Shown here in pieces: positions 1,774 to 12,104 of a DNA stretch of 13,440 nt (the stretch's first letter is position 1; each line of letters starts with the position of its first letter). The notes below the pieces were generated by a model that saw nothing but the letters and a program-made list of their open reading frames with translations, did no database searches and was not told the DNA's origin. Position numbers and translations under genes: made by a program. This DNA is from a virus: the UHGV virus genome UHGV-1946153; one strand, given 5' to 3'.

Positions 1774-2058
1774 TTATTCAGTGCCGATATTTACCTTTAT
1801 CGCGTATACCTTTACCGGTTTATCACCGAAGTGCGGATGTGTGATTGTCTTCACTTCATATCCGTCATACGGAACATCAACTCTGCGGCTGGAATCGTCG
1901 CGCTTCGGATATCCCTTTGTGATAATCAGGCGGTCATGCTTACGGTTAACGAGGCGCTTTTTCCAGTAGTCATTACACAGGCGATACTCTTCCGTTTTCT
2001 CTCCGCGAATCATGGCATCGAAGTATTCACCTTTAACGGCAAGTTGCAGGTTAGCCAC
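1774..2058 (-). CDS. ASCH/PUA-like domain protein, about 94 aa
   Basis: GTG start at 2056-2058 preceded by AAGGAG with a 6-nt spacer; the longer track ORF (to 2142) lacks an RBS. N-terminal motif FDAMIRGEKTEEYR fits the ASCH-domain signature (I/M-x-G-x-K-T-x-E-x-R). Confidence 0.6.
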   Translation of the reverse strand: MANLQLAVKGEYFDAMIRGEKTEEYRLCNDYWKKRLVNRKHDRLIITKGYPKRDDSSRRVDVPYDGYEVKTITHPHFGDKPVKVYAIKVNIGTE

Positions 2059-2674
2059 GGTTAACTCCTTGCTGTGTGGCGTCGAGTAATAAATCCCACA
2101 ACCGCTGAGAGCAATTTCCGCATGTACAGCGTTGACCCACAACGTTTATCGCGTTGCTGATTTCCGGCGTTACCTGTTTAGGAACCATAACCCAACCATC
2201 CGGAGTTACCGGAGAGTTGCCAAACAGCTTGTTCAACTTGTAAGTCTGGCTTACAGGTTTGACACCGTGAAGCATGGTGGCGCGGCAAGCATCCTCTACG
2301 CCTTTAACTGCATCTGCGCAGTAGTTATAGCGATTGCATTCCACTAACTTCTGCTTGAGATTTTCAATTGCCTGCGCGACATCAGCCTGTATTACCGGCG
2401 CTGGCGGTGCCATGTAAAGCGGAGTGACGTGTACGACAGAACCAAGTGTCTCATGTATCCGAACCCATGTATCTTTCTCTGCACAGTCACGGTAAATAGT
2501 AGAGGCTGAGTCCTGACCGTCTTTTGTGATTGTGACCTGCCATGCCACCGGTTCAGCTTCCAGCGAGGCTAACGCTATTTCATAAGCCCGGCGCTCAATA
2601 TTGTCTCGCACATCCAGGCTGCCTATGCGCTCTTTGATTTCTTTAATCATTTCTTTGTCGGTAAAAGTGCTCAT
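2051..2674 (-). CDS. Hypothetical protein, 207 aa, with shared N-terminal IALASLEAEPVAW module and Cys-rich C-terminus
   Basis: ATG at 2672-2674 preceded by AAGGAG (rc of 2681-2686). The motif YEIALASLEAEPVAW is shared with the adjacent upstream gene. C-terminal CTCGNCSQRLW may bind metal. Confidence 0.65.
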   Translation of the reverse strand: MSTFTDKEMIKEIKERIGSLDVRDNIERRAYEIALASLEAEPVAWQVTITKDGQDSASTIYRDCAEKDTWVRIHETLGSVVHVTPLYMAPPAPVIQADVAQAIENLKQKLVECNRYNYCADAVKGVEDACRATMLHGVKPVSQTYKLNKLFGNSPVTPDGWVMVPKQVTPEISNAINVVGQRCTCGNCSQRLWDLLLDATQQGVNRG

Positions 2675-2675
2675 A

Positions 2676-3122
2676 TCAATCTCCTTTGGTACCAATGTTT
2701 ACAGCCTGGCAAGCCTCTTTGAGTACCCAATCAACAGCGTCTTTCCATGCTCCGGTTTCGACTGGCGGATTTTCACGTTTAACCTGTTCATAGAAACGCA
2801 CGGCTTTAACCAGTCCTTCTGATGTCACCGGGACTGGCGGGGCAGTGAATAAGGCCTGAATCTCATAGCTCGGCCTGTCGTTGCAATCCTCTTTTGTCGG
2901 TACATATTTCCAGTCACCAACCCACGGCTCCCCCTGAGAGTCCGTAACGCCTTTTTTCACGTAGCGATATCGCCACGCTACAGGCTCCGCTTCCAGCGAT
3001 GCCAGCGCAATCCGTGCCAGCTCTTCCGCTTCTTCTGCTGGCAGTACAACGTTGCTACCAGGTCCGTATGTTTCGCGCCACTCCTTGATTGTCAGCAGTC
3101 GCTCTTTGGTAATAGTGGTCAT
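2676..3122 (-). CDS. Hypothetical protein, 148 aa, with shared N-terminal IALASLEAEPVAW module
   Basis: ATG at 3120-3122 preceded by AAAGGAGAG. Its stop is 1 nt from the next start. Contains ARIALASLEAEPVAW, paralogous to the neighbouring gene. Confidence 0.65.
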   Translation of the reverse strand: MTTITKERLLTIKEWRETYGPGSNVVLPAEEAEELARIALASLEAEPVAWRYRYVKKGVTDSQGEPWVGDWKYVPTKEDCNDRPSYEIQALFTAPPVPVTSEGLVKAVRFYEQVKRENPPVETGAWKDAVDWVLKEACQAVNIGTKGD

Positions 3123-3123
3123 C

Positions 3124-3735
3124 TCACTCTCCTTTGATGCGAATACCAGCGGCGCGTGGCACATTAACTTCCACGATGCGCACTGTTGGTTTGTACATCT
3201 CAATCGCTGTCAGCCAGTCAGCTCCTGTCATGCGCTTTTCCGCATCGCCATTAGTCCACTGAACCGGTACACCAATAGCCTTCATCGCGATTTCTATTTC
3301 CCCGGCAATGGCGCTTTTTCCGCAACCAGTAAAACCAGATACAACGACCAGAACTTCACCTTTGGCTGGTTTTATTTCCCGTGCTTCCAGTTCTGCAATG
3401 CGCTTACTTCCATCCGAGATAACGCNNNNNNNNNNNNNNNNNTGCTCGTTGAGTTTTGATTTTGCCAACTCCAGTTGTTTTGTTAGTTCTGCAATACGAC
3501 AAACATCGTTGATACGCGTTTCCTCTAATGCGTTGCTCTCATCCAGTAGCGCCAGCACGGTTTCTGGTCCGGCCAGAAATTTGAAGGCGTTGAGGGCATC
3601 AATATCAACACCGCTATCTTTAAGTTCCTGTTCGCTTATCAGATCATCATCAACTGGCAACATTAACAGGCGTTCCATTGCTGGAGTTGCACGTTCTGCC
3701 GCCTCACGTAGTGCCTGGTAATTAATTTCGCTCAC
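3124..3735 (-). CDS. Hypothetical protein, about 203 aa, possibly Ead/Ea22-like; interrupted by an N-run
   Basis: GTG start at 3733-3735 with AAGGAGG 7 nt upstream, overlapping the upstream stop (GTGA). Acidic helical N-terminal half. C-terminal half contains a Walker-A-like GFTGCGKS. The family name is recalled from memory, not verified. Frame continuity across the 17-N gap is assumed. Confidence 0.6.
   Translation of the reverse strand: MSEINYQALREAAERATPAMERLLMLPVDDDLISEQELKDSGVDIDALNAFKFLAGPETVLALLDESNALEETRINDVCRIAELTKQLELAKSKLNEXXXXXXXVISDGSKRIAELEAREIKPAKGEVLVVVSGFTGCGKSAIAGEIEIAMKAIGVPVQWTNGDAEKRMTGADWLTAIEMYKPTVRIVEVNVPRAAGIRIKGE
3426..3442. other. Assembly gap / masked bases (17 N)
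   Basis: Run of N characters inside the CDS at 3124-3735. Confidence 0.99.
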
Positions 3736-6850: not shown

Positions 6851-6999
6851 TTCCTGCGATACCACGGAAGGTTGATAGCTGATTTCATCGCTTTATTTGC
6901 TTCAAACCACATTTTTGAATCACCAATAAATCTGGCTATTACTGCTTTGTTCTGTGCAGCACGAAGCATCTGGTGATTAATGGCTATTTCATTGCGCAT
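6847..6999 (-). CDS. Small protein, 50 aa, possibly Kil-like (not in the ORF track)
   Basis: Hand-translated: MRNEIAINHQMLRAAQNKAVIARFIGDSKMWFEANKAMKSAINLPWYRRK. RBS GAGG 7 nt upstream. It sits just upstream of the recombination genes, like lambda kil, and the FIGDxKM segment resembles lambda Kil as recalled from memory. Confidence 0.4.
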   Translation of the reverse strand: MRNEIAINHQMLRAAQNKAVIARFIGDSKMWFEANKAMKSAINLPWYRRK

Positions 7000-7038
7000 A
7001 ATAAGACCTCAACTCTTTTCCATCCGTCACGTAATTTA

Positions 7039-7048
7039 NNNNNNNNNN
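7039..7048. other. Assembly gap / masked bases (10 N)
   Basis: Run of N characters in the intergenic region. Confidence 0.99.
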
Positions 7049-7146
7049 GTGATTCGTTCAAGTAAAGATTCATTTAATTGGAAGGCACCCATGCGAGCGC
7101 CTCCCGCGATTGCGTAAATCATGGGTGGTTCCTTATGTTGGTTTTA

Positions 7147-8115
7147 TTAGTAGGTTATTTTTGTTGCGAATACTTCGCCTTTTACGATGGCTGTTATGAT
7201 ATTTTTAGCAACATCTTCTGGTGCGCCAACCTTGATAAGGTCAGCAAGTATTTTGTTATTTACTTCTTTCCGGTGAGCTTTATCCTTTGCTCTACGCTCT
7301 TCTTCGTCCTTGATTCTTTTTTCTTCTGCTATTCTGGCTTGCTCTTTTGCTTCAGCCTCGCGCCGGATTCGTTCAGCCTCCTCCTGTGCTTTTCGGCGTT
7401 CTGCTTCAATTGCCGCCTGCTTTTCTCTTTCAGCTCGTTCTGCTGCCTCTTTTGCTTCGCGCTGTGCTCGTTGCTCGGCTTCAATGCGTTCACGCTCTGC
7501 ACGTTCCGCTGCGGCCTTAGCTTCTGCTTCTCGCCTTGCTGCTGCTTCAATTTCGGCTTTTGCCTTTGCTTCGGCTTCAGCTCTGGCTTTCTCTTCAGCT
7601 TCTCTTTGTAAGCGTTCTTCATGCTCTCGCTTTTCCTGCTCCGCTTTGAGTCTTGCCTCTTCTCTTTGGCGGTCAAATTCGCGATCCATCAAAATCGCTA
7701 TTTCATGGTCAGACTCAATTTGCTTTGCGAGAGCTTCAGCTGCTGCCTTAGCTTCTTCTTCGGCTTTAATCCGCGCCTGTTCTTCCTCATAATCAGTAAG
7801 AGGCTGGCGCGCCTTGGCTTTCAGTTCATCAAGGCGATCGCGCACTGTCTTGCGGTTGGCATCAATTAGCTTTGGAATTTCCTTCAGTTCAGCAACAAGG
7901 TCTTTGCCAAGACCATCGAGATATGTTTTCGTCTGCGCAACTTTATACGCCAGAGAAGCGATCTCCTTTCTGCCCTTTGCCGTTGTGATATCAGGCACAA
8001 AGGACATAACTTCACGTTCAACCTTTTGAAGGATTTCTTCAATCTGGTCGGCAGACTGAAATACAGTCATTGCATTTGCTTTTTCAATAACAACTAAATC
8101 TGTTACTTCACTCAT
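7147..8115 (-). CDS. Hypothetical protein, 322 aa, with a long Glu/Ala/Lys/Arg-rich helical region
   Basis: ATG at 8113-8115 with GGAGG 4 nt upstream. A globular N-terminal domain is followed by about 170 residues of EAKR-rich sequence typical of a single alpha-helix or coiled coil, then a short C-terminal domain. Confidence 0.75.
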   Translation of the reverse strand: MSEVTDLVVIEKANAMTVFQSADQIEEILQKVEREVMSFVPDITTAKGRKEIASLAYKVAQTKTYLDGLGKDLVAELKEIPKLIDANRKTVRDRLDELKAKARQPLTDYEEEQARIKAEEEAKAAAEALAKQIESDHEIAILMDREFDRQREEARLKAEQEKREHEERLQREAEEKARAEAEAKAKAEIEAAARREAEAKAAAERAERERIEAEQRAQREAKEAAERAEREKQAAIEAERRKAQEEAERIRREAEAKEQARIAEEKRIKDEEERRAKDKAHRKEVNNKILADLIKVGAPEDVAKNIITAIVKGEVFATKITY

Positions 8116-8151
8116 ATATCCTCCATCAAAAAATCGCCCTCACATTGGAGG

Positions 8152-8225
8152 NNNNNNNNNNNNNNNNNNNNNNNNNNNNNNNNNNNNNNNNNNNNNNNNN
8201 NNNNNNNNNNNNNNNNNNNNNNNNN
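8152..8225. other. Assembly gap / masked bases (74 N)
   Basis: Run of N characters between the 322-aa gene and the AT-rich cassette. Confidence 0.99.
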
Positions 8226-8257
8226 TCGTTGGAATGAATACACAGTGCTTATTCGTA

Positions 8258-8728
8258 CTAATAAAACACCCAATTTTCTGTTTCTTGGTTGTGTCCAAAG
8301 TTATATTCAATATCTGGTGTTGATGTATCAATATTCTTCATCCCATCAACAAGAGTTGATACAACAGCTAAATCTTGTTTGATTCGCATCAAATGGTATT
8401 TCTTCCGGCGCAATAAACTTTCAATGGCAAGTTTCTTCGTTGGGAATGCAAAAGATCTTTCTGCATTTTTTGCTACTTTCTTAATTGCATATCTATTTCT
8501 CCTTTGTTTCCATTCCTGTAACCACTGATTTGGTGCTGGTTTAAAATTAACAATCCAATGCGCAGGAACCAACCATGCATAATGCTCTGTCTGATGAAAA
8601 GCTATATATTGAAGTGCGAATATTTTGATCCCATCTTCTTCAACTGTCGCTTGGAATCTCCAGAAAACAGGCATTCCATCATGTTCAGTTTCTGATTCAG
8701 GAAAAGGTACGCTCCATGATTTTGTCAT
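8258..8728 (-). CDS. Hypothetical protein, 156 aa (AT-rich accessory cassette)
   Basis: ATG at 8726-8728 with a GAGGTGA RBS. Local GC looks clearly lower than the flanking DNA (estimated by eye, not computed). Soluble, Trp/Lys-rich, no recognised domain. Confidence 0.65.
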   Translation of the reverse strand: MTKSWSVPFPESETEHDGMPVFWRFQATVEEDGIKIFALQYIAFHQTEHYAWLVPAHWIVNFKPAPNQWLQEWKQRRNRYAIKKVAKNAERSFAFPTKKLAIESLLRRKKYHLMRIKQDLAVVSTLVDGMKNIDTSTPDIEYNFGHNQETENWVFY

Positions 8729-8774
8729 ATCTCACCTCAAATAATTCAGTGCAGTGTTTATTCTGTTGTTTATA

Positions 8775-8800
8775 CCAAAAGAAGGCCGACTATGCGGCCT
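8775..8800 (-). terminator. Putative intrinsic terminator between the two cassette genes
   Basis: Minus-strand hairpin AGGCCG-catagt-CGGCCT followed by TTCTTTTGG. Confidence 0.35.
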
Positions 8801-8841
8801 GTGATGTTAGATTTACTTTCATTTTTGAACGGCAGCTACAA

Positions 8842-9105
8842 TTATGATGGAATGTACAAAACCACTTTCCAGTTCATAGAAGTGGATGATGGCATAAAAT
8901 AATCCCACGACTCATTAGCTACTAACTCTTTATTAACTGTGGTGGCAGCAATTTCGGCATCACCTTTATTATTAAAAATGTCGTTCGAATACTGACATTT
9001 TCCATCTGCATGCACATATAAAATATCATATGTATCTGTATCGTAATAACCGCTTATGTCTCTGATAACAATTCCTGGCTTCAATGATTTAATTTTCTTG
9101 TCCAT
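8842..9105 (-). CDS. Hypothetical protein, 87 aa (AT-rich accessory cassette)
   Basis: ATG at 9103-9105, 8 nt after the N stop codon, with the same GAGGTGATAT leader as the 156-aa gene. No recognised domain. Confidence 0.6.
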   Translation of the reverse strand: MDKKIKSLKPGIVIRDISGYYDTDTYDILYVHADGKCQYSNDIFNNKGDAEIAATTVNKELVANESWDYFMPSSTSMNWKVVLYIPS

Positions 9106-9113
9106 ATATCACC

Positions 9114-9413
9114 TCAAATAAGTGGTTTGCTGCCTAATTTCATTTTCTGGCGACCAACACAAGTCACACCCATTTCACTGCGTGGCTTGCGGTAGTAAAT
9201 ACGGTTCTGTTTACGCTCGACTTCTTCTGCCTTCTTGCAGCGAAGGCTTCCGAGCGATGCTGCTTTATCTGCTCTGACGCAACCAGAGAGCTTTAGCGCA
9301 ATTTTTCGCGCCAGTCGCTGCTCTTGCATTGCCTGTTCACGTTGAGCCTGTCTGCGTGCTCTGCGGCGATTTCTGGCGTTATCGTCAGCCAGATATGTAA
9401 TGACTACTGTCAT
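9114..9413 (-). CDS. N: Antitermination protein N, 99 aa
   Basis: C-terminus ...ERKQNRIYYRKPRSEMGVTCVGRQKMKLGSKPLI closely parallels lambda N (...ERKNQRTWYSKPGERGITCSGRQKIKGKSIPLI). N-terminal arginine-rich motif NARNRRRARRQAQREQ. RBS GGAGG 5 nt before the ATG at 9411-9413. Confidence 0.88.
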   Translation of the reverse strand: MTVVITYLADDNARNRRRARRQAQREQAMQEQRLARKIALKLSGCVRADKAASLGSLRCKKAEEVERKQNRIYYRKPRSEMGVTCVGRQKMKLGSKPLI

Positions 9414-9520
9414 GTTGACCTCCGATGATTGACTTTGGCGGTGACGCGCCGGGTGCTTATCTTCCGGTTGCCGTCGTGCAGCTGCACTTCACGTCACCCC
9501 AAAGCCAACTACTCTTTGGT

Positions 9521-9561
9521 TCCCGCATTTCGGCGGGACAATCCCATCAATGTTAAAGAGC
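9521..9561 (-). promoter_or_regulatory. nutL-like site (boxA + boxB)
   Basis: Read on the minus strand: GCTCTTTAACA (boxA-like; lambda CGCTCTTA) then the hairpin CCCGC-CGAAAT-GCGGGA (boxB-like). Lies between pL and N, and the boxB core is identical to nutR. Confidence 0.6.
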
Positions 9562-9600
9562 CTGCCAATCTGTTCCGTTTGGCTACCAGCGTCCTGCTGA

Positions 9601-9690
9601 TGGCTTAAATTTAAGATCTCTTTAATTAATGGTCAAGAGTATTTTTGAAGAAAACTTAAATTTTCTTTCGTAACTTAAGTTTGGCTTTGA
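9601..9690 (-). promoter_or_regulatory. oL/pL region: leftward early promoter with operator palindromes
   Basis: Candidate pL on the minus strand: -35 TTGACC (rc of 9631-9636), 17-bp spacer, -10 TTAAAT (rc of 9608-9613). Palindromes: CTTAAATTTAAG (9604-9615, overlapping -10), GAAAACTTAAATTTTC (9650-9665), AACTTAAGTT (9672-9681). Confidence 0.55.
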
Positions 9691-11275: not shown

Positions 11276-12104
11276 TATGGGGTATGTCTCTATACACCGC
11301 CAGTTTATGGACAGCAGGCTCTATAAGGACTCTCAGGCAGTACATCTTTGGCTTCACTTAATCCTCAAGGCTAATCACGAATCTACTGTCGTCAATACGG
11401 ATATCGGTCCGATAACTGTTGATCGCGGTCAGATGATAACTGGACGCCCGTCGCTGGTCAGAGAAACATTCATCCCCGACAACAAAGTTCGGAGCTTATT
11501 ACGGACTTTTGAGTCGAAAGGGATGCTTAATATTTGCTCGATGGGGAAGAAATTTAGCCTGTTTACAATCGTTAAATATGACGATTTTCAGGCAAAAAAT
11601 TGTCCAACGGTTGTCCAACGGTTGTCCAACGCAAACACCAGTAATGGCGCGGCTCTCAGCGGAGATTGTCCAACGGTTGTCCAACGGTTGTCCATAAACA
11701 ATAATATAAATAATATCTCTAATACTGACGTATTAGAGAGTGCCACAGCAGACAAAAAGTCTGACAAGAAAAAACCTTCCGTTAGCTGTCAGGATGTTGT
11801 CGATGCTTACCACGAAATCCTTCCTGAAGCGCCAAGAATCCGCGCACTGAATGACAAGCGTAAAAACCAGATCCGAACGTTCTGGCGCAAAGCCGGAGTG
11901 ATAACCCGCCAGCTTGACGGGCATGGGTTCACGATGCAGGACTGGAGAAATTATTTGAGCTACGTAGGCGAAAATTGCCGATGGATGTTCGAAGAACGCC
12001 CAAACCATCAACGCGGAACCGTCTGGCACAAAAAGGGATTTGATTTCCTGCTTAACGACAATACCTACCTGAAAGTTCGTGAGGGTGAACACGATGACCG
12101 ATAA
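11276..12104 (+). CDS. Replication initiator (lambda O / P22 gene 18 analogue) with the origin embedded in the gene
   Basis: ORF contains the iteron array and AT-rich region and is followed by an overlapping helicase gene. Start chosen at ATG 11276 (AGGAGG, 8-nt spacer); alternative ATG at 11214 (AGGAG, 6-nt spacer) gives the 296-aa track ORF. No direct sequence similarity to lambda O was recognised; the call rests on synteny and iterons. Confidence 0.8.
11600..11698. repeat. Origin iterons: six 11-bp direct repeats (TTGTCCAACGG) in two triplets
   Basis: Repeats at 11600-11610, 11611-11621, 11622-11632, a 33-bp spacer, then 11666-11676, 11677-11687 and a degenerate 11688-11698. Lies inside the initiator CDS, as in ori-lambda. 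Confidence 0.8.
11716..11739. repeat. Perfect 10-bp inverted repeat in the AT-rich region next to the iterons
   Basis: TCTCTAATAC-tgac-GTATTAGAGA inside AT-rich sequence (about 11694-11740). Candidate DNA-unwinding element or binding site. Confidence 0.5.

What the first reader, a model, noticed from the sequence alone, without database searches (positions are those of the whole stretch)
8226..9113. AT-rich two-gene cassette directly downstream of N, a candidate exclusion or defence moron
The 87-aa and 156-aa genes sit in DNA that is visibly more AT-rich than the flanking prophage backbone, which suggests separate horizontal acquisition. They occupy the slot after N where lambdoid phages carry accessory superinfection-exclusion or anti-restriction genes. 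Neither protein resembles SieB, Ral or Rex by eye, and the 156-aa protein is not hydrophobic. A 74-N gap at 8152-8225 may hide a third gene. This is the strongest candidate here for an uncharacterised system.
Basis: partly seen in the sequence, partly recalled or inferred. Interest (0 to 1): 0.62.

Follow-up and report, generated by a model that had tools for sequence, protein, structure and literature searches.

The report
Two separate early phage accessory genes
The AT-rich stretch after the phage N gene holds two unrelated, independently swapped single genes of unknown function, not a two-gene defence system; they are transcribed with N at the start of lytic growth, and the larger one belongs to a widespread phage-only protein family (also in Shiga-toxin phage 933W) whose fold matches no solved structure.

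The parts
9608..9636 (-). pL-type early-left promoter (TTGACC, 17 nt, TAAATT)
   Evidence: Only minus-strand promoter-like site in the scan. It aligns with P22's annotated early-left promoter/OL region. Sequence read.
9521..9561 (-). nutL-like site: boxA GCTCTTTAACA (9561-9551) and a boxB-like hairpin CCCGC-CGAAAT-GCGGG (9537-9522)
   Evidence: Read from the sequence. boxA aligns with P22 nutL boxA. boxB differs from P22, consistent with a lambda-like N. Function is inferred.
9114..9413 (-). Antitermination protein N homologue (99 aa)
   Evidence: phrog_271 E=4.8e-37. Pfam N_peptide 20.2 bits, below the 27.9 cutoff. blastp to lambda N E=2e-9.
9103..9121 (-). Junction motif TTATTTGAGGTGATATATG (N stop, RBS, o87 start codon)
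   Evidence: One of exactly two matches in the window, 0 expected by chance. It forms the right-hand copy of the ~23-bp direct repeat flanking the o87 indel.
8842..9105 (-). o87: 87-aa, 9.9-kDa, acidic (pI 4.86), soluble protein; phrog_33140, unknown function
   Evidence: 41% identical homologues in virulent Klebsiella Mydovirus phages KB57/KpS8. Present in 8 of 5426 E. coli genomes.
8745..9097 (-). o87 module: a 353-bp clean indel (gene plus its 3' terminator flank) relative to N-o156 phages
   Evidence: blastn breakpoints against L002, L003, L005 and L007. The 3' flank travels with o87 in all loci and matches the DNA just downstream of lambda ral.
8783..8800 (-). Intrinsic-terminator-like hairpin after o87 (AGGCCG-CATAGT-CGGCCT + TCTTTTGG)
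8726..8744 (-). Second copy of the junction motif, TTATTTGAGGTGAGATATG (RBS and o156 start codon)
8258..8728 (-). o156: 156-aa basic protein (pI 9.07; residues 56-130 net +12); phrog_1636; same family as 933W L0079 and Phi24B vb_24B_11c; novel alpha/beta fold
   Evidence: Found in 598 of 5426 E. coli genomes. Superfamily of 87 representatives. AF2 pLDDT 93.8. No PDB match. Coding signature in the sense frame.
8249..8746 (-). o156 module: a 498-bp clean indel relative to phages carrying o87 only, bounded by the short repeat AATAA..GCACTG
   Evidence: blastn breakpoints against L010 and L011. Alignment.
8129..8248 (-). Conserved non-coding structured spacer that contains the masked 74-N run (8152-8225) and ends in an intrinsic terminator (hairpin 8134-8155 plus a T run)
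   Evidence: Unmasked sequence from L001. Present in every compared locus that extends that far. Near-identical to lambda DNA between ral and ea10 and to 933W. RNA fold -50.6 kcal/mol against -30.9 +/- 3.5 for shuffles, z=-5.6. Terminator scan. No Rfam match.

Best explanation
The region holds two unrelated, independently mobile single-gene accessory modules. They sit in the hypervariable 'ral slot' of the early-left (pL) operon of a mosaic lambdoid prophage with a P22-type immunity region and a lambda-like N. Transcription starts at pL, passes nutL and N, and runs straight into o87, which starts 8 nt after N's stop. It then meets a terminator, o156, and the conserved spacer/terminator. The genes should therefore be off in the repressed lysogen and made in the first minutes after infection or induction. 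o87 would be made without N. o156 would need N-mediated read-through in this prophage, but it lies before the first terminator in 933W-type phages. The most likely role is an early lytic-cycle accessory function directed at the host or at competing defences. o87 is a small acidic soluble protein that replaces ral position-for-position, so it is probably an inhibitor-type counter-defence protein. o156 is a basic, probably nucleic-acid-binding protein with a new alpha/beta fold, acting alone on a broadly conserved target. Shown: gene reality, composition, module borders, independent assortment, operon layout, family distribution, and the absence of any known fold or domain. Inferred: timing of expression, nucleic-acid binding, and the counter-defence or takeover role.
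For: Independent assortment: o156 is in 598 of 5426 genomes and o87 in 8. Of 17 informative o87 loci, 13 lack o156. Five o156 loci examined lack o87. Both genes are clean indels bounded by repeats. Operon layout: only pL was found on this strand. pL and boxA align with P22's annotated sites. There is a terminator after each gene. Slot logic: in phi367 the order is N, ral, o156. In lambda the DNA 3' of ral equals the DNA 3' of o87. Other co-directional occupants are Ral, Nmad5 (E=1e-70) and gp17 (E=1e-54; the P22 record says it 'allows growth on phage Fels2 lysogen'). sieB is antisense with its own promoter. Virulent-phage relatives: o87 in Mydovirus KB57/KpS8. The o156 fold appears in N4-like phiAxp-3 and RG-2014 and in phiEa2809, and is confirmed by profile in phiAxp-3 ADP65_00030 (E=2.9e-9). 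Orthologues and distant relatives always lie co-directionally in early-left operons of temperate phages, with no constant partner gene. Purifying selection acts on o156. Charge pattern.
Against: There is no experimental or homology-based functional evidence for either protein, and no literature. The promoter scan is a simple consensus scan and could miss a weak or non-sigma-70 promoter, so lysogenic expression is not excluded. Virulent phages also encode exclusion proteins, so virulent relatives do not rule out an exclusion role. Few residues are invariant across the o156 superfamily (G33, E/Q46, T47, K87, A101), so a binding role is only a guess. No structure was obtained for o87.
Confidence: 0.5

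Rival explanations
1. One reading: one or both genes are prophage-encoded superinfection-exclusion or anti-phage defence morons that protect the lysogen.
For: They are AT-rich foreign modules, each with its own terminator. They lie in a slot that also holds sieB in lambda and P22. They are uncharacterised, so they could belong to an undescribed defence family.
Against: No promoter of their own was detected and they are tightly coupled to N within the repressor-controlled pL operon. sieB's antisense, own-promoter layout is not shared. PADLOC gives only noise (Cas1_II E=0.018, 12 bits). Neither has a membrane segment. Relatives occur in obligately virulent phages. The two genes are not co-inherited.
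Confidence: 0.15
2. o156 is a non-conflict early regulator or DNA-transaction factor, for example a DNA- or RNA-binding modulator of early transcription, recombination or the lysis-lysogeny decision. o87 is an unrelated passenger.
For: o156 has a basic central region of net +12 and a 33-residue helix. It is constantly placed in early-left operons next to recombination, methylase and xis/int genes in distant phages. It often lies immediately after N.
Against: It is patchily distributed and dispensable: absent from lambda and P22, and a clean presence/absence indel among near-identical backbones. That pattern is typical of accessory conflict genes and not of core regulators. It has no recognisable DNA-binding domain.
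Confidence: 0.2
3. The ORFs are decaying or selfish passenger DNA with no function for phage or host.
For: Low GC and a rare gene (o87 in 8 of 5426 genomes).
Against: o156 shows a coding substitution pattern across 58-71% identical orthologues. It has a confident fold and a superfamily spanning many phage groups. o87 is conserved at 41% identity between E. coli prophages and Klebsiella virulent phages, with 33 invariant positions.
Confidence: 0.05

Closest known systems
Phage 933W L0079 / Phi24B vb_24B_11c (PHROG 1636), hypothetical protein directly downstream of N in Stx phages
   Same: Same family as o156 (about 98-99% DNA identity), with the same position and orientation after N, followed by the same conserved spacer.
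   Different: Nothing differs functionally, because neither has a known function. In 933W the gene follows N directly, whereas here o87 and a terminator are interposed.
Lambda / P22 Ral (restriction alleviation)
   Same: o87 occupies the same position. It is co-directional in the pL operon, and its 3' flank is homologous to the DNA 3' of lambda ral. In phi367 ral sits exactly where o87 sits relative to o156. Both are small proteins.
   Different: No sequence similarity. Ral is 64-66 aa and Cys-rich, whereas o87 is 87 aa, acidic and has one Cys. An anti-restriction activity for o87 is untested.
SieB (lambda, P22) superinfection exclusion
   Same: Same general genomic slot between N and cIII.
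   Different: SieB is on the opposite strand with its own promoter and RNA start (P22 record), and its N-terminal sequence reads as hydrophobic (printout; no hydropathy was computed for it). o87 and o156 are co-directional with pL, soluble and not homologous to it.
P22 gp17 (Pfam GP17)
   Same: A small co-directional pL accessory gene in the neighbouring sub-slot of related prophages (L007, E=9.5e-55), with a counter-exclusion role according to the P22 record.
   Different: Not homologous to o87 or o156.
Morons in the sense of Juhala/Hendrix (autonomous promoter-gene-terminator insertions expressed from the prophage)
   Same: Deviant base composition, clean insertion between conserved genes, and a terminator at the 3' end.
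   Different: No promoter of their own was detected. They share N's stop/RBS junction and are read from pL.

Membership tests
Two-gene system (co-inherited cassette) | The two genes co-occur and are exchanged as a unit | tested here: not met
   o156 is in 598 genomes and o87 in 8. 13 of 17 informative o87 loci lack o156. Each gene is a separate indel with its own borders.
SieB | Sequence homology to lambda/P22 SieB | tested here: not met
   blastp E >= 0.16 over 26 residues or fewer; profile scores below 2 bits.
SieB | Opposite strand to pL with its own promoter, giving expression in the lysogen | tested here: not met
   Both genes are co-directional with N, and no minus-strand promoter other than pL was found. 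P22 sieB layout is shown.
Ral | Sequence homology to Ral | tested here: not met
   No blastp hit; profile scores are negative.
Ral | Position in the pL operon between N and the conserved spacer upstream of ea10 | tested here: met
   Met for o87: its 3' flank matches the lambda ral 3' flank, and phi367 has ral in the same place.
Ral | Alleviates type I restriction | not testable with these tools
   Needs plating of unmodified phage on EcoKI/EcoBI hosts with and without o87.
RexAB | Homology to RexA/RexB and location next to cI in the pRM transcript | tested here: not met
   No homology. The genes lie on the far side of pL from cI.
Known anti-phage defence systems (PADLOC-DB v2) | Significant match to a defence-protein model | tested here: not met
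   o87 has no match. o156 has only Cas1_II at E=0.018, 12.4 bits over 45 residues.
Moron (autonomous transcription unit) | Own promoter upstream of the gene | tested here: inconclusive
   The consensus scan found none (2 sites in 1.8 kb against 3.9 expected, and only pL on this strand). The scan cannot exclude weak or atypical promoters.
Moron (autonomous transcription unit) | Own terminator and deviant base composition | tested here: met
   Terminator-like hairpins follow each gene. GC is 34-36% against 45%.
PHROG 1636 (o156) and PHROG 33140 (o87) | Full-length profile match | tested here: met
   E=2.7e-112 over 1-156 and E=8.9e-49 over 1-87. Both families are annotated 'unknown function'.
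Any solved protein fold (o156) | Structural match to a PDB chain | tested here: not met

The most novel reading that the evidence does not exclude
o156 (933W L0079) is the founding, still uncharacterised member of a phage-only protein superfamily with a new fold, present in temperate and virulent phages of several bacterial phyla. In this reading it acts as an immediate-early factor of a new mechanistic class, for example a nucleic-acid-binding counter-defence or host-shutoff protein. o87 would then be a new Ral-slot anti-restriction or anti-defence inhibitor. Because the family is carried by Stx phages in about 11% of complete E. coli genomes, it could affect the host range of Stx phages.
Probability: 0.3. 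Interest if true: 0.6.

Novelty: new member of a known kind. Interest (0 to 1): 0.35.

Why it matters
If o156 and o87 are counter-defence or host-takeover factors, they would add two unstudied families to the early arsenal of lambdoid phages. o156 has a fold with no solved relative and is carried by 933W-type Shiga-toxin phages, so it is relevant to how those phages spread between E. coli strains. The anatomy is also useful in itself. The slot is bounded by N's stop/RBS junction and by a conserved lambda-identical spacer/terminator, which gives a simple way to harvest alternative cargo genes (Ral, Nmad5, gp17, o87, o156 and others) for screening. As a candidate 'new defence system' the finding is weak.

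Tried and rejected
- Pfam, NCBIfam and PADLOC scans gave nothing credible for o87 or o156, and Pfam gave nothing for 64 superfamily members.
- Rfam on the region with the gap unmasked gave no match at E <= 1.
- The first AF2 run, with a shallow 22-sequence alignment, was poor (pLDDT 59.4). It was replaced by the 64-sequence run.
- Peptide-motif searches in the supplements of the Silas et al. accessory-gene screens found neither protein.
- tblastn with a central superfamily member found only one phage record, so it was too insensitive.
- PDB profile search with o87 gave noise only.
- Antisense ORFs inside o156 (79 aa and 45 aa on the + strand) were considered as sieB-like genes. They were rejected because they are not conserved in orthologues.
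- The idea that o156 substitutes for ral was rejected because the two co-occur in phi367.
- Correction: my working prose and a notebook checkpoint gave the o87 census as 20 complete slots with 4 also carrying o156 (16 lacking it). A recount gives 18 o87 loci, of which 17 are informative: 4 with o156 and 13 without.

Full report
WHAT IS THERE

The window is the early region of a mosaic lambdoid prophage. It runs int/xis, ea22-like genes, recT, kil, cIII, a 322-aa coiled-coil gene, the two genes in question, N, a P22-type cI/cro/cII region, and replication genes. It is 100% identical to part of the E. coli strain E1 chromosome (NZ_CP104503.1, poultry). I fetched that record as L001; window coordinate + 101 = L001 coordinate.

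The two ORFs are on the minus strand: o87 at 8842-9105 and o156 at 8258-8728. N is at 9114-9413. N matches phrog_271 at E=4.8e-37 and lambda N at E=2e-9, and is annotated as N in phage vB_EcoP-611R6.

COMPOSITION

Region 8226-9113 is 35.9% GC. The whole window is 45.5%, the left flank 44.8% and the right flank 46.1%. This is the lowest 888-bp stretch in the window (sliding-window mean 45.4%, sd 3.4%). GC3 is 0.28 for o156 and 0.33 for o87, against 0.35-0.54 for neighbouring genes. The AT-richness claim is therefore correct. Four o156 orthologues in other hosts are also 6-7 GC points below their flanks.

THE GAP

The 74-N run (8152-8225) is masking, not missing sequence. The E1 record has exactly 74 nt there. 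These bases are part of a ~120-bp non-coding spacer (8129-8248). The spacer is present in every compared locus that extends that far, whatever genes flank it. It is near-identical to 933W and to lambda's own DNA between ral and ea10. As RNA it folds far better than shuffled controls: -50.6 against -30.9 +/- 3.5 kcal/mol, z=-5.6. It ends in a GC hairpin plus a T run, which looks like an intrinsic terminator. It matches no Rfam family. No third gene is hidden there.

NOT A CASSETTE

- By megablast, o156 DNA occurs in 598 of 5426 complete E. coli genomes (834 places). o87 occurs in 8.
- Among 18 o87-bearing loci fetched, 17 are informative. Four also carry o156 and 13 do not. This corrects an earlier working count of 20 loci with 16 lacking o156.
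- o156 occurs without o87 in 933W (L0079), Phi24B (vb_24B_11c), vB_EcoP-611R6 and several prophages.
- The breakpoints are clean. o87 plus its terminator flank is a 353-bp indel (8745-9097). o156 is a 498-bp indel (8249-8746).
- Both genes begin with the same 19-nt junction, TTATTTGAGGTGA[G/T]ATATG, which covers N's stop, the RBS and the start codon. It occurs exactly twice in the window, with 0 expected by chance. This gives the direct repeat at which the o87 module is inserted. The o156 indel is bounded by a short AATAA..GCACTG repeat.

THE SLOT

- The DNA just 3' of o87 is homologous to the DNA just 3' of lambda ral.
- In phage phi367 the order is N, small ORFs, ral, o156. o87 is therefore positionally allelic with ral, and o156 lies in a second sub-slot that can accompany either.
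- Other co-directional cargo in related prophages includes an Nmad5 nucleotide-modification protein (E=1.2e-70) with a phrog_1273 protein, a P22 gp17 homologue (E=9.5e-55), and several unknowns.
- The P22 record describes ral as restriction alleviation and gene 17 as allowing growth on a Fels-2 lysogen. sieB is on the opposite strand with its own mapped promoter, and lambda is annotated likewise.

TRANSCRIPTION LOGIC (INFERRED FROM SEQUENCE)

- The immunity region is 83% identical to P22.
- A TTGACC-17-TAAATT promoter at 9636-9608 aligns with P22's pL/OL. boxA (GCTCTTTAACA, 9561-9551) and a boxB-like hairpin (9537-9522) follow it.
- No other minus-strand promoter-like site was found between cI and the coiled-coil gene.
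- o87 starts 8 nt after N's stop. A terminator-like hairpin follows o87 (8800-8783) and another follows o156 (8155-8134).
- Both genes should therefore be silent under repressor and transcribed at infection or induction. o87 would be transcribed together with N. o156 would be transcribed after N-dependent read-through here, or together with N in 933W-type phages.

THE PROTEINS: o87

o87 is 9.9 kDa, acidic (pI 4.86) and has no hydrophobic segment. It belongs to phrog_33140. Its family is tiny: 4 clusters among 5.8 billion proteins. It does include 41%-identical proteins of virulent Klebsiella Vequintavirinae phages KB57 and KpS8, where it sits among small hypothetical genes. It has no PDB sequence relative.

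THE PROTEINS: o156

- It is 18.6 kDa and basic (pI 9.07). Its termini are acidic and residues 56-130 carry net +12.
- The close family is confined to Enterobacterales. An exhaustive profile search finds a superfamily of 87 representatives at E<=1e-3, mostly 130-155 aa. These fall into phrog_1636, phrog_13631 and phrog_25384, all of unknown function and with no Pfam domain.
- Orthologues lie right after N in a Cronobacter prophage and a metagenomic phage, and next to xis/int in Pectobacterium. Distant members lie co-directionally in early-left operons of Marinobacterium and other temperate phages, among methylases and small genes, with no constant partner.
- With the 64-sequence alignment, AlphaFold2 gives a confident model (pLDDT 93.8, pTM 0.81). 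It has a long three-stranded sheet, two short helices, two short strands and a 33-residue helix.
- In the viral predicted-structure library, 13 proteins match at E<=1e-3. All are uncharacterised. They include N4-like phiAxp-3 and RG-2014, and Erwinia phage phiEa2809.
- I confirmed phiAxp-3 ADP65_00030 by profile search (E=2.9e-9, 31 bits). It sits among small genes in the left-arm block upstream of the nucleotide-metabolism and replication genes.
- The sense frame shows codon-position differences 3 > 1 > 2 against four orthologues, and antisense ORFs are not conserved.
- Neither protein resembles Ral, SieB, RexA/B, gp17, Ea10, Gam or Abc1/2. PADLOC gives only noise.

INTERPRETATION

The shown facts fit two independent early-operon accessory genes. 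They do not fit a two-gene, prophage-expressed defence system. Four things point to a lytic-cycle role such as counter-defence or host takeover:

- their orientation and coupling to N;
- the nature of the other co-directional cargo (Ral, Nmad5, gp17);
- the contrast with sieB;
- relatives in obligately virulent phages.

o87 would be a Ral-slot inhibitor-type protein. o156 would be a stand-alone, probably nucleic-acid-binding protein aimed at a conserved target. All of this is inference, and no function has been tested. I found no paper on L0079, vb_24B_11c or these PHROGs, and neither protein appears in the Silas et al. accessory-gene libraries.

A defence or exclusion role (about 0.15) and a non-conflict regulatory role for o156 (about 0.2) remain open.

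VERDICT

These are new members of a known kind: mosaic accessory cargo of the lambdoid N-ral slot. One has a confidently predicted fold with no solved relative and is carried by Stx phages. Interest is moderate to low (0.35). The most novel surviving reading, a new class of immediate-early counter-defence or takeover protein, has a probability of about 0.3.

Noticed in passing
window 8129-8248 (L001 8230-8349): A ~120-bp non-coding element, partly masked in the window, is near-identical in lambda (between ral and ea10), 933W and all compared prophages. It folds into three hairpins (z=-5.6), the last an intrinsic terminator. It has no Rfam family. It could be more than a terminator, for example a processing site or a 3'-derived small RNA. 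The copies are too similar to test covariation.
   Followed up: partly
window 7039-7048 and 3426-3442: There are two further short N-masked runs. The first falls inside the cIII gene (window ~6991-7122 according to the E1 annotation), which is why no cIII ORF is listed. The second falls inside an ead/Ea22-like gene.
   Followed up: partly
window 7147-8115 (-): A 322-aa, extremely charged coiled-coil protein (annotated 'TolA' or 'coiled-coil'; phrog_1376, unknown function) occupies the next sub-slot. In lambda, 933W and other prophages that sub-slot holds Ea10/DUF2528 instead.
   Followed up: no
window 11588-11705 (+), inside the 296-aa replication gene: There are two clusters of tandem 11-bp repeats (TTGTCCAACGG, three or four copies each, clusters 66 bp apart). 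They look like origin iterons embedded in the O-like gene, as in lambda.
   Followed up: partly
window ~9520-9575: There is a mosaic joint between a P22-type immunity region (83% identity, including pL and boxA) and a lambda-like N with a different boxB hairpin. The similarity to P22 ends at about 9573.
   Followed up: partly
L006 2334-3324; L008 910-1911; L037 2323-2626: Alternative cargo of the same slot in sister prophages: Nmad5 plus a phrog_1273 protein; phrog_1273 plus a 67-aa protein plus a 138-aa phrog_8967 protein; and a 74-aa phrog_5305 protein with ral. All are uncharacterised except Ral.
   Followed up: partly
window 2051-3203 (-): Two adjacent ORFs (214 aa and 175 aa) share an internal motif (I)ALASLEAEPVAW, which suggests paralogous or recombined modules in the ea22-like region.
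   Followed up: no
L033-L036 (o156 orthologues in Pectobacterium, Cronobacter, Rosenbergiella and a metagenome): o156 orthologues are consistently 6-7 GC points below their surrounding prophage DNA in four different hosts, so low GC is a family trait and not a sign of a recent arrival in E. coli.
   Followed up: partly
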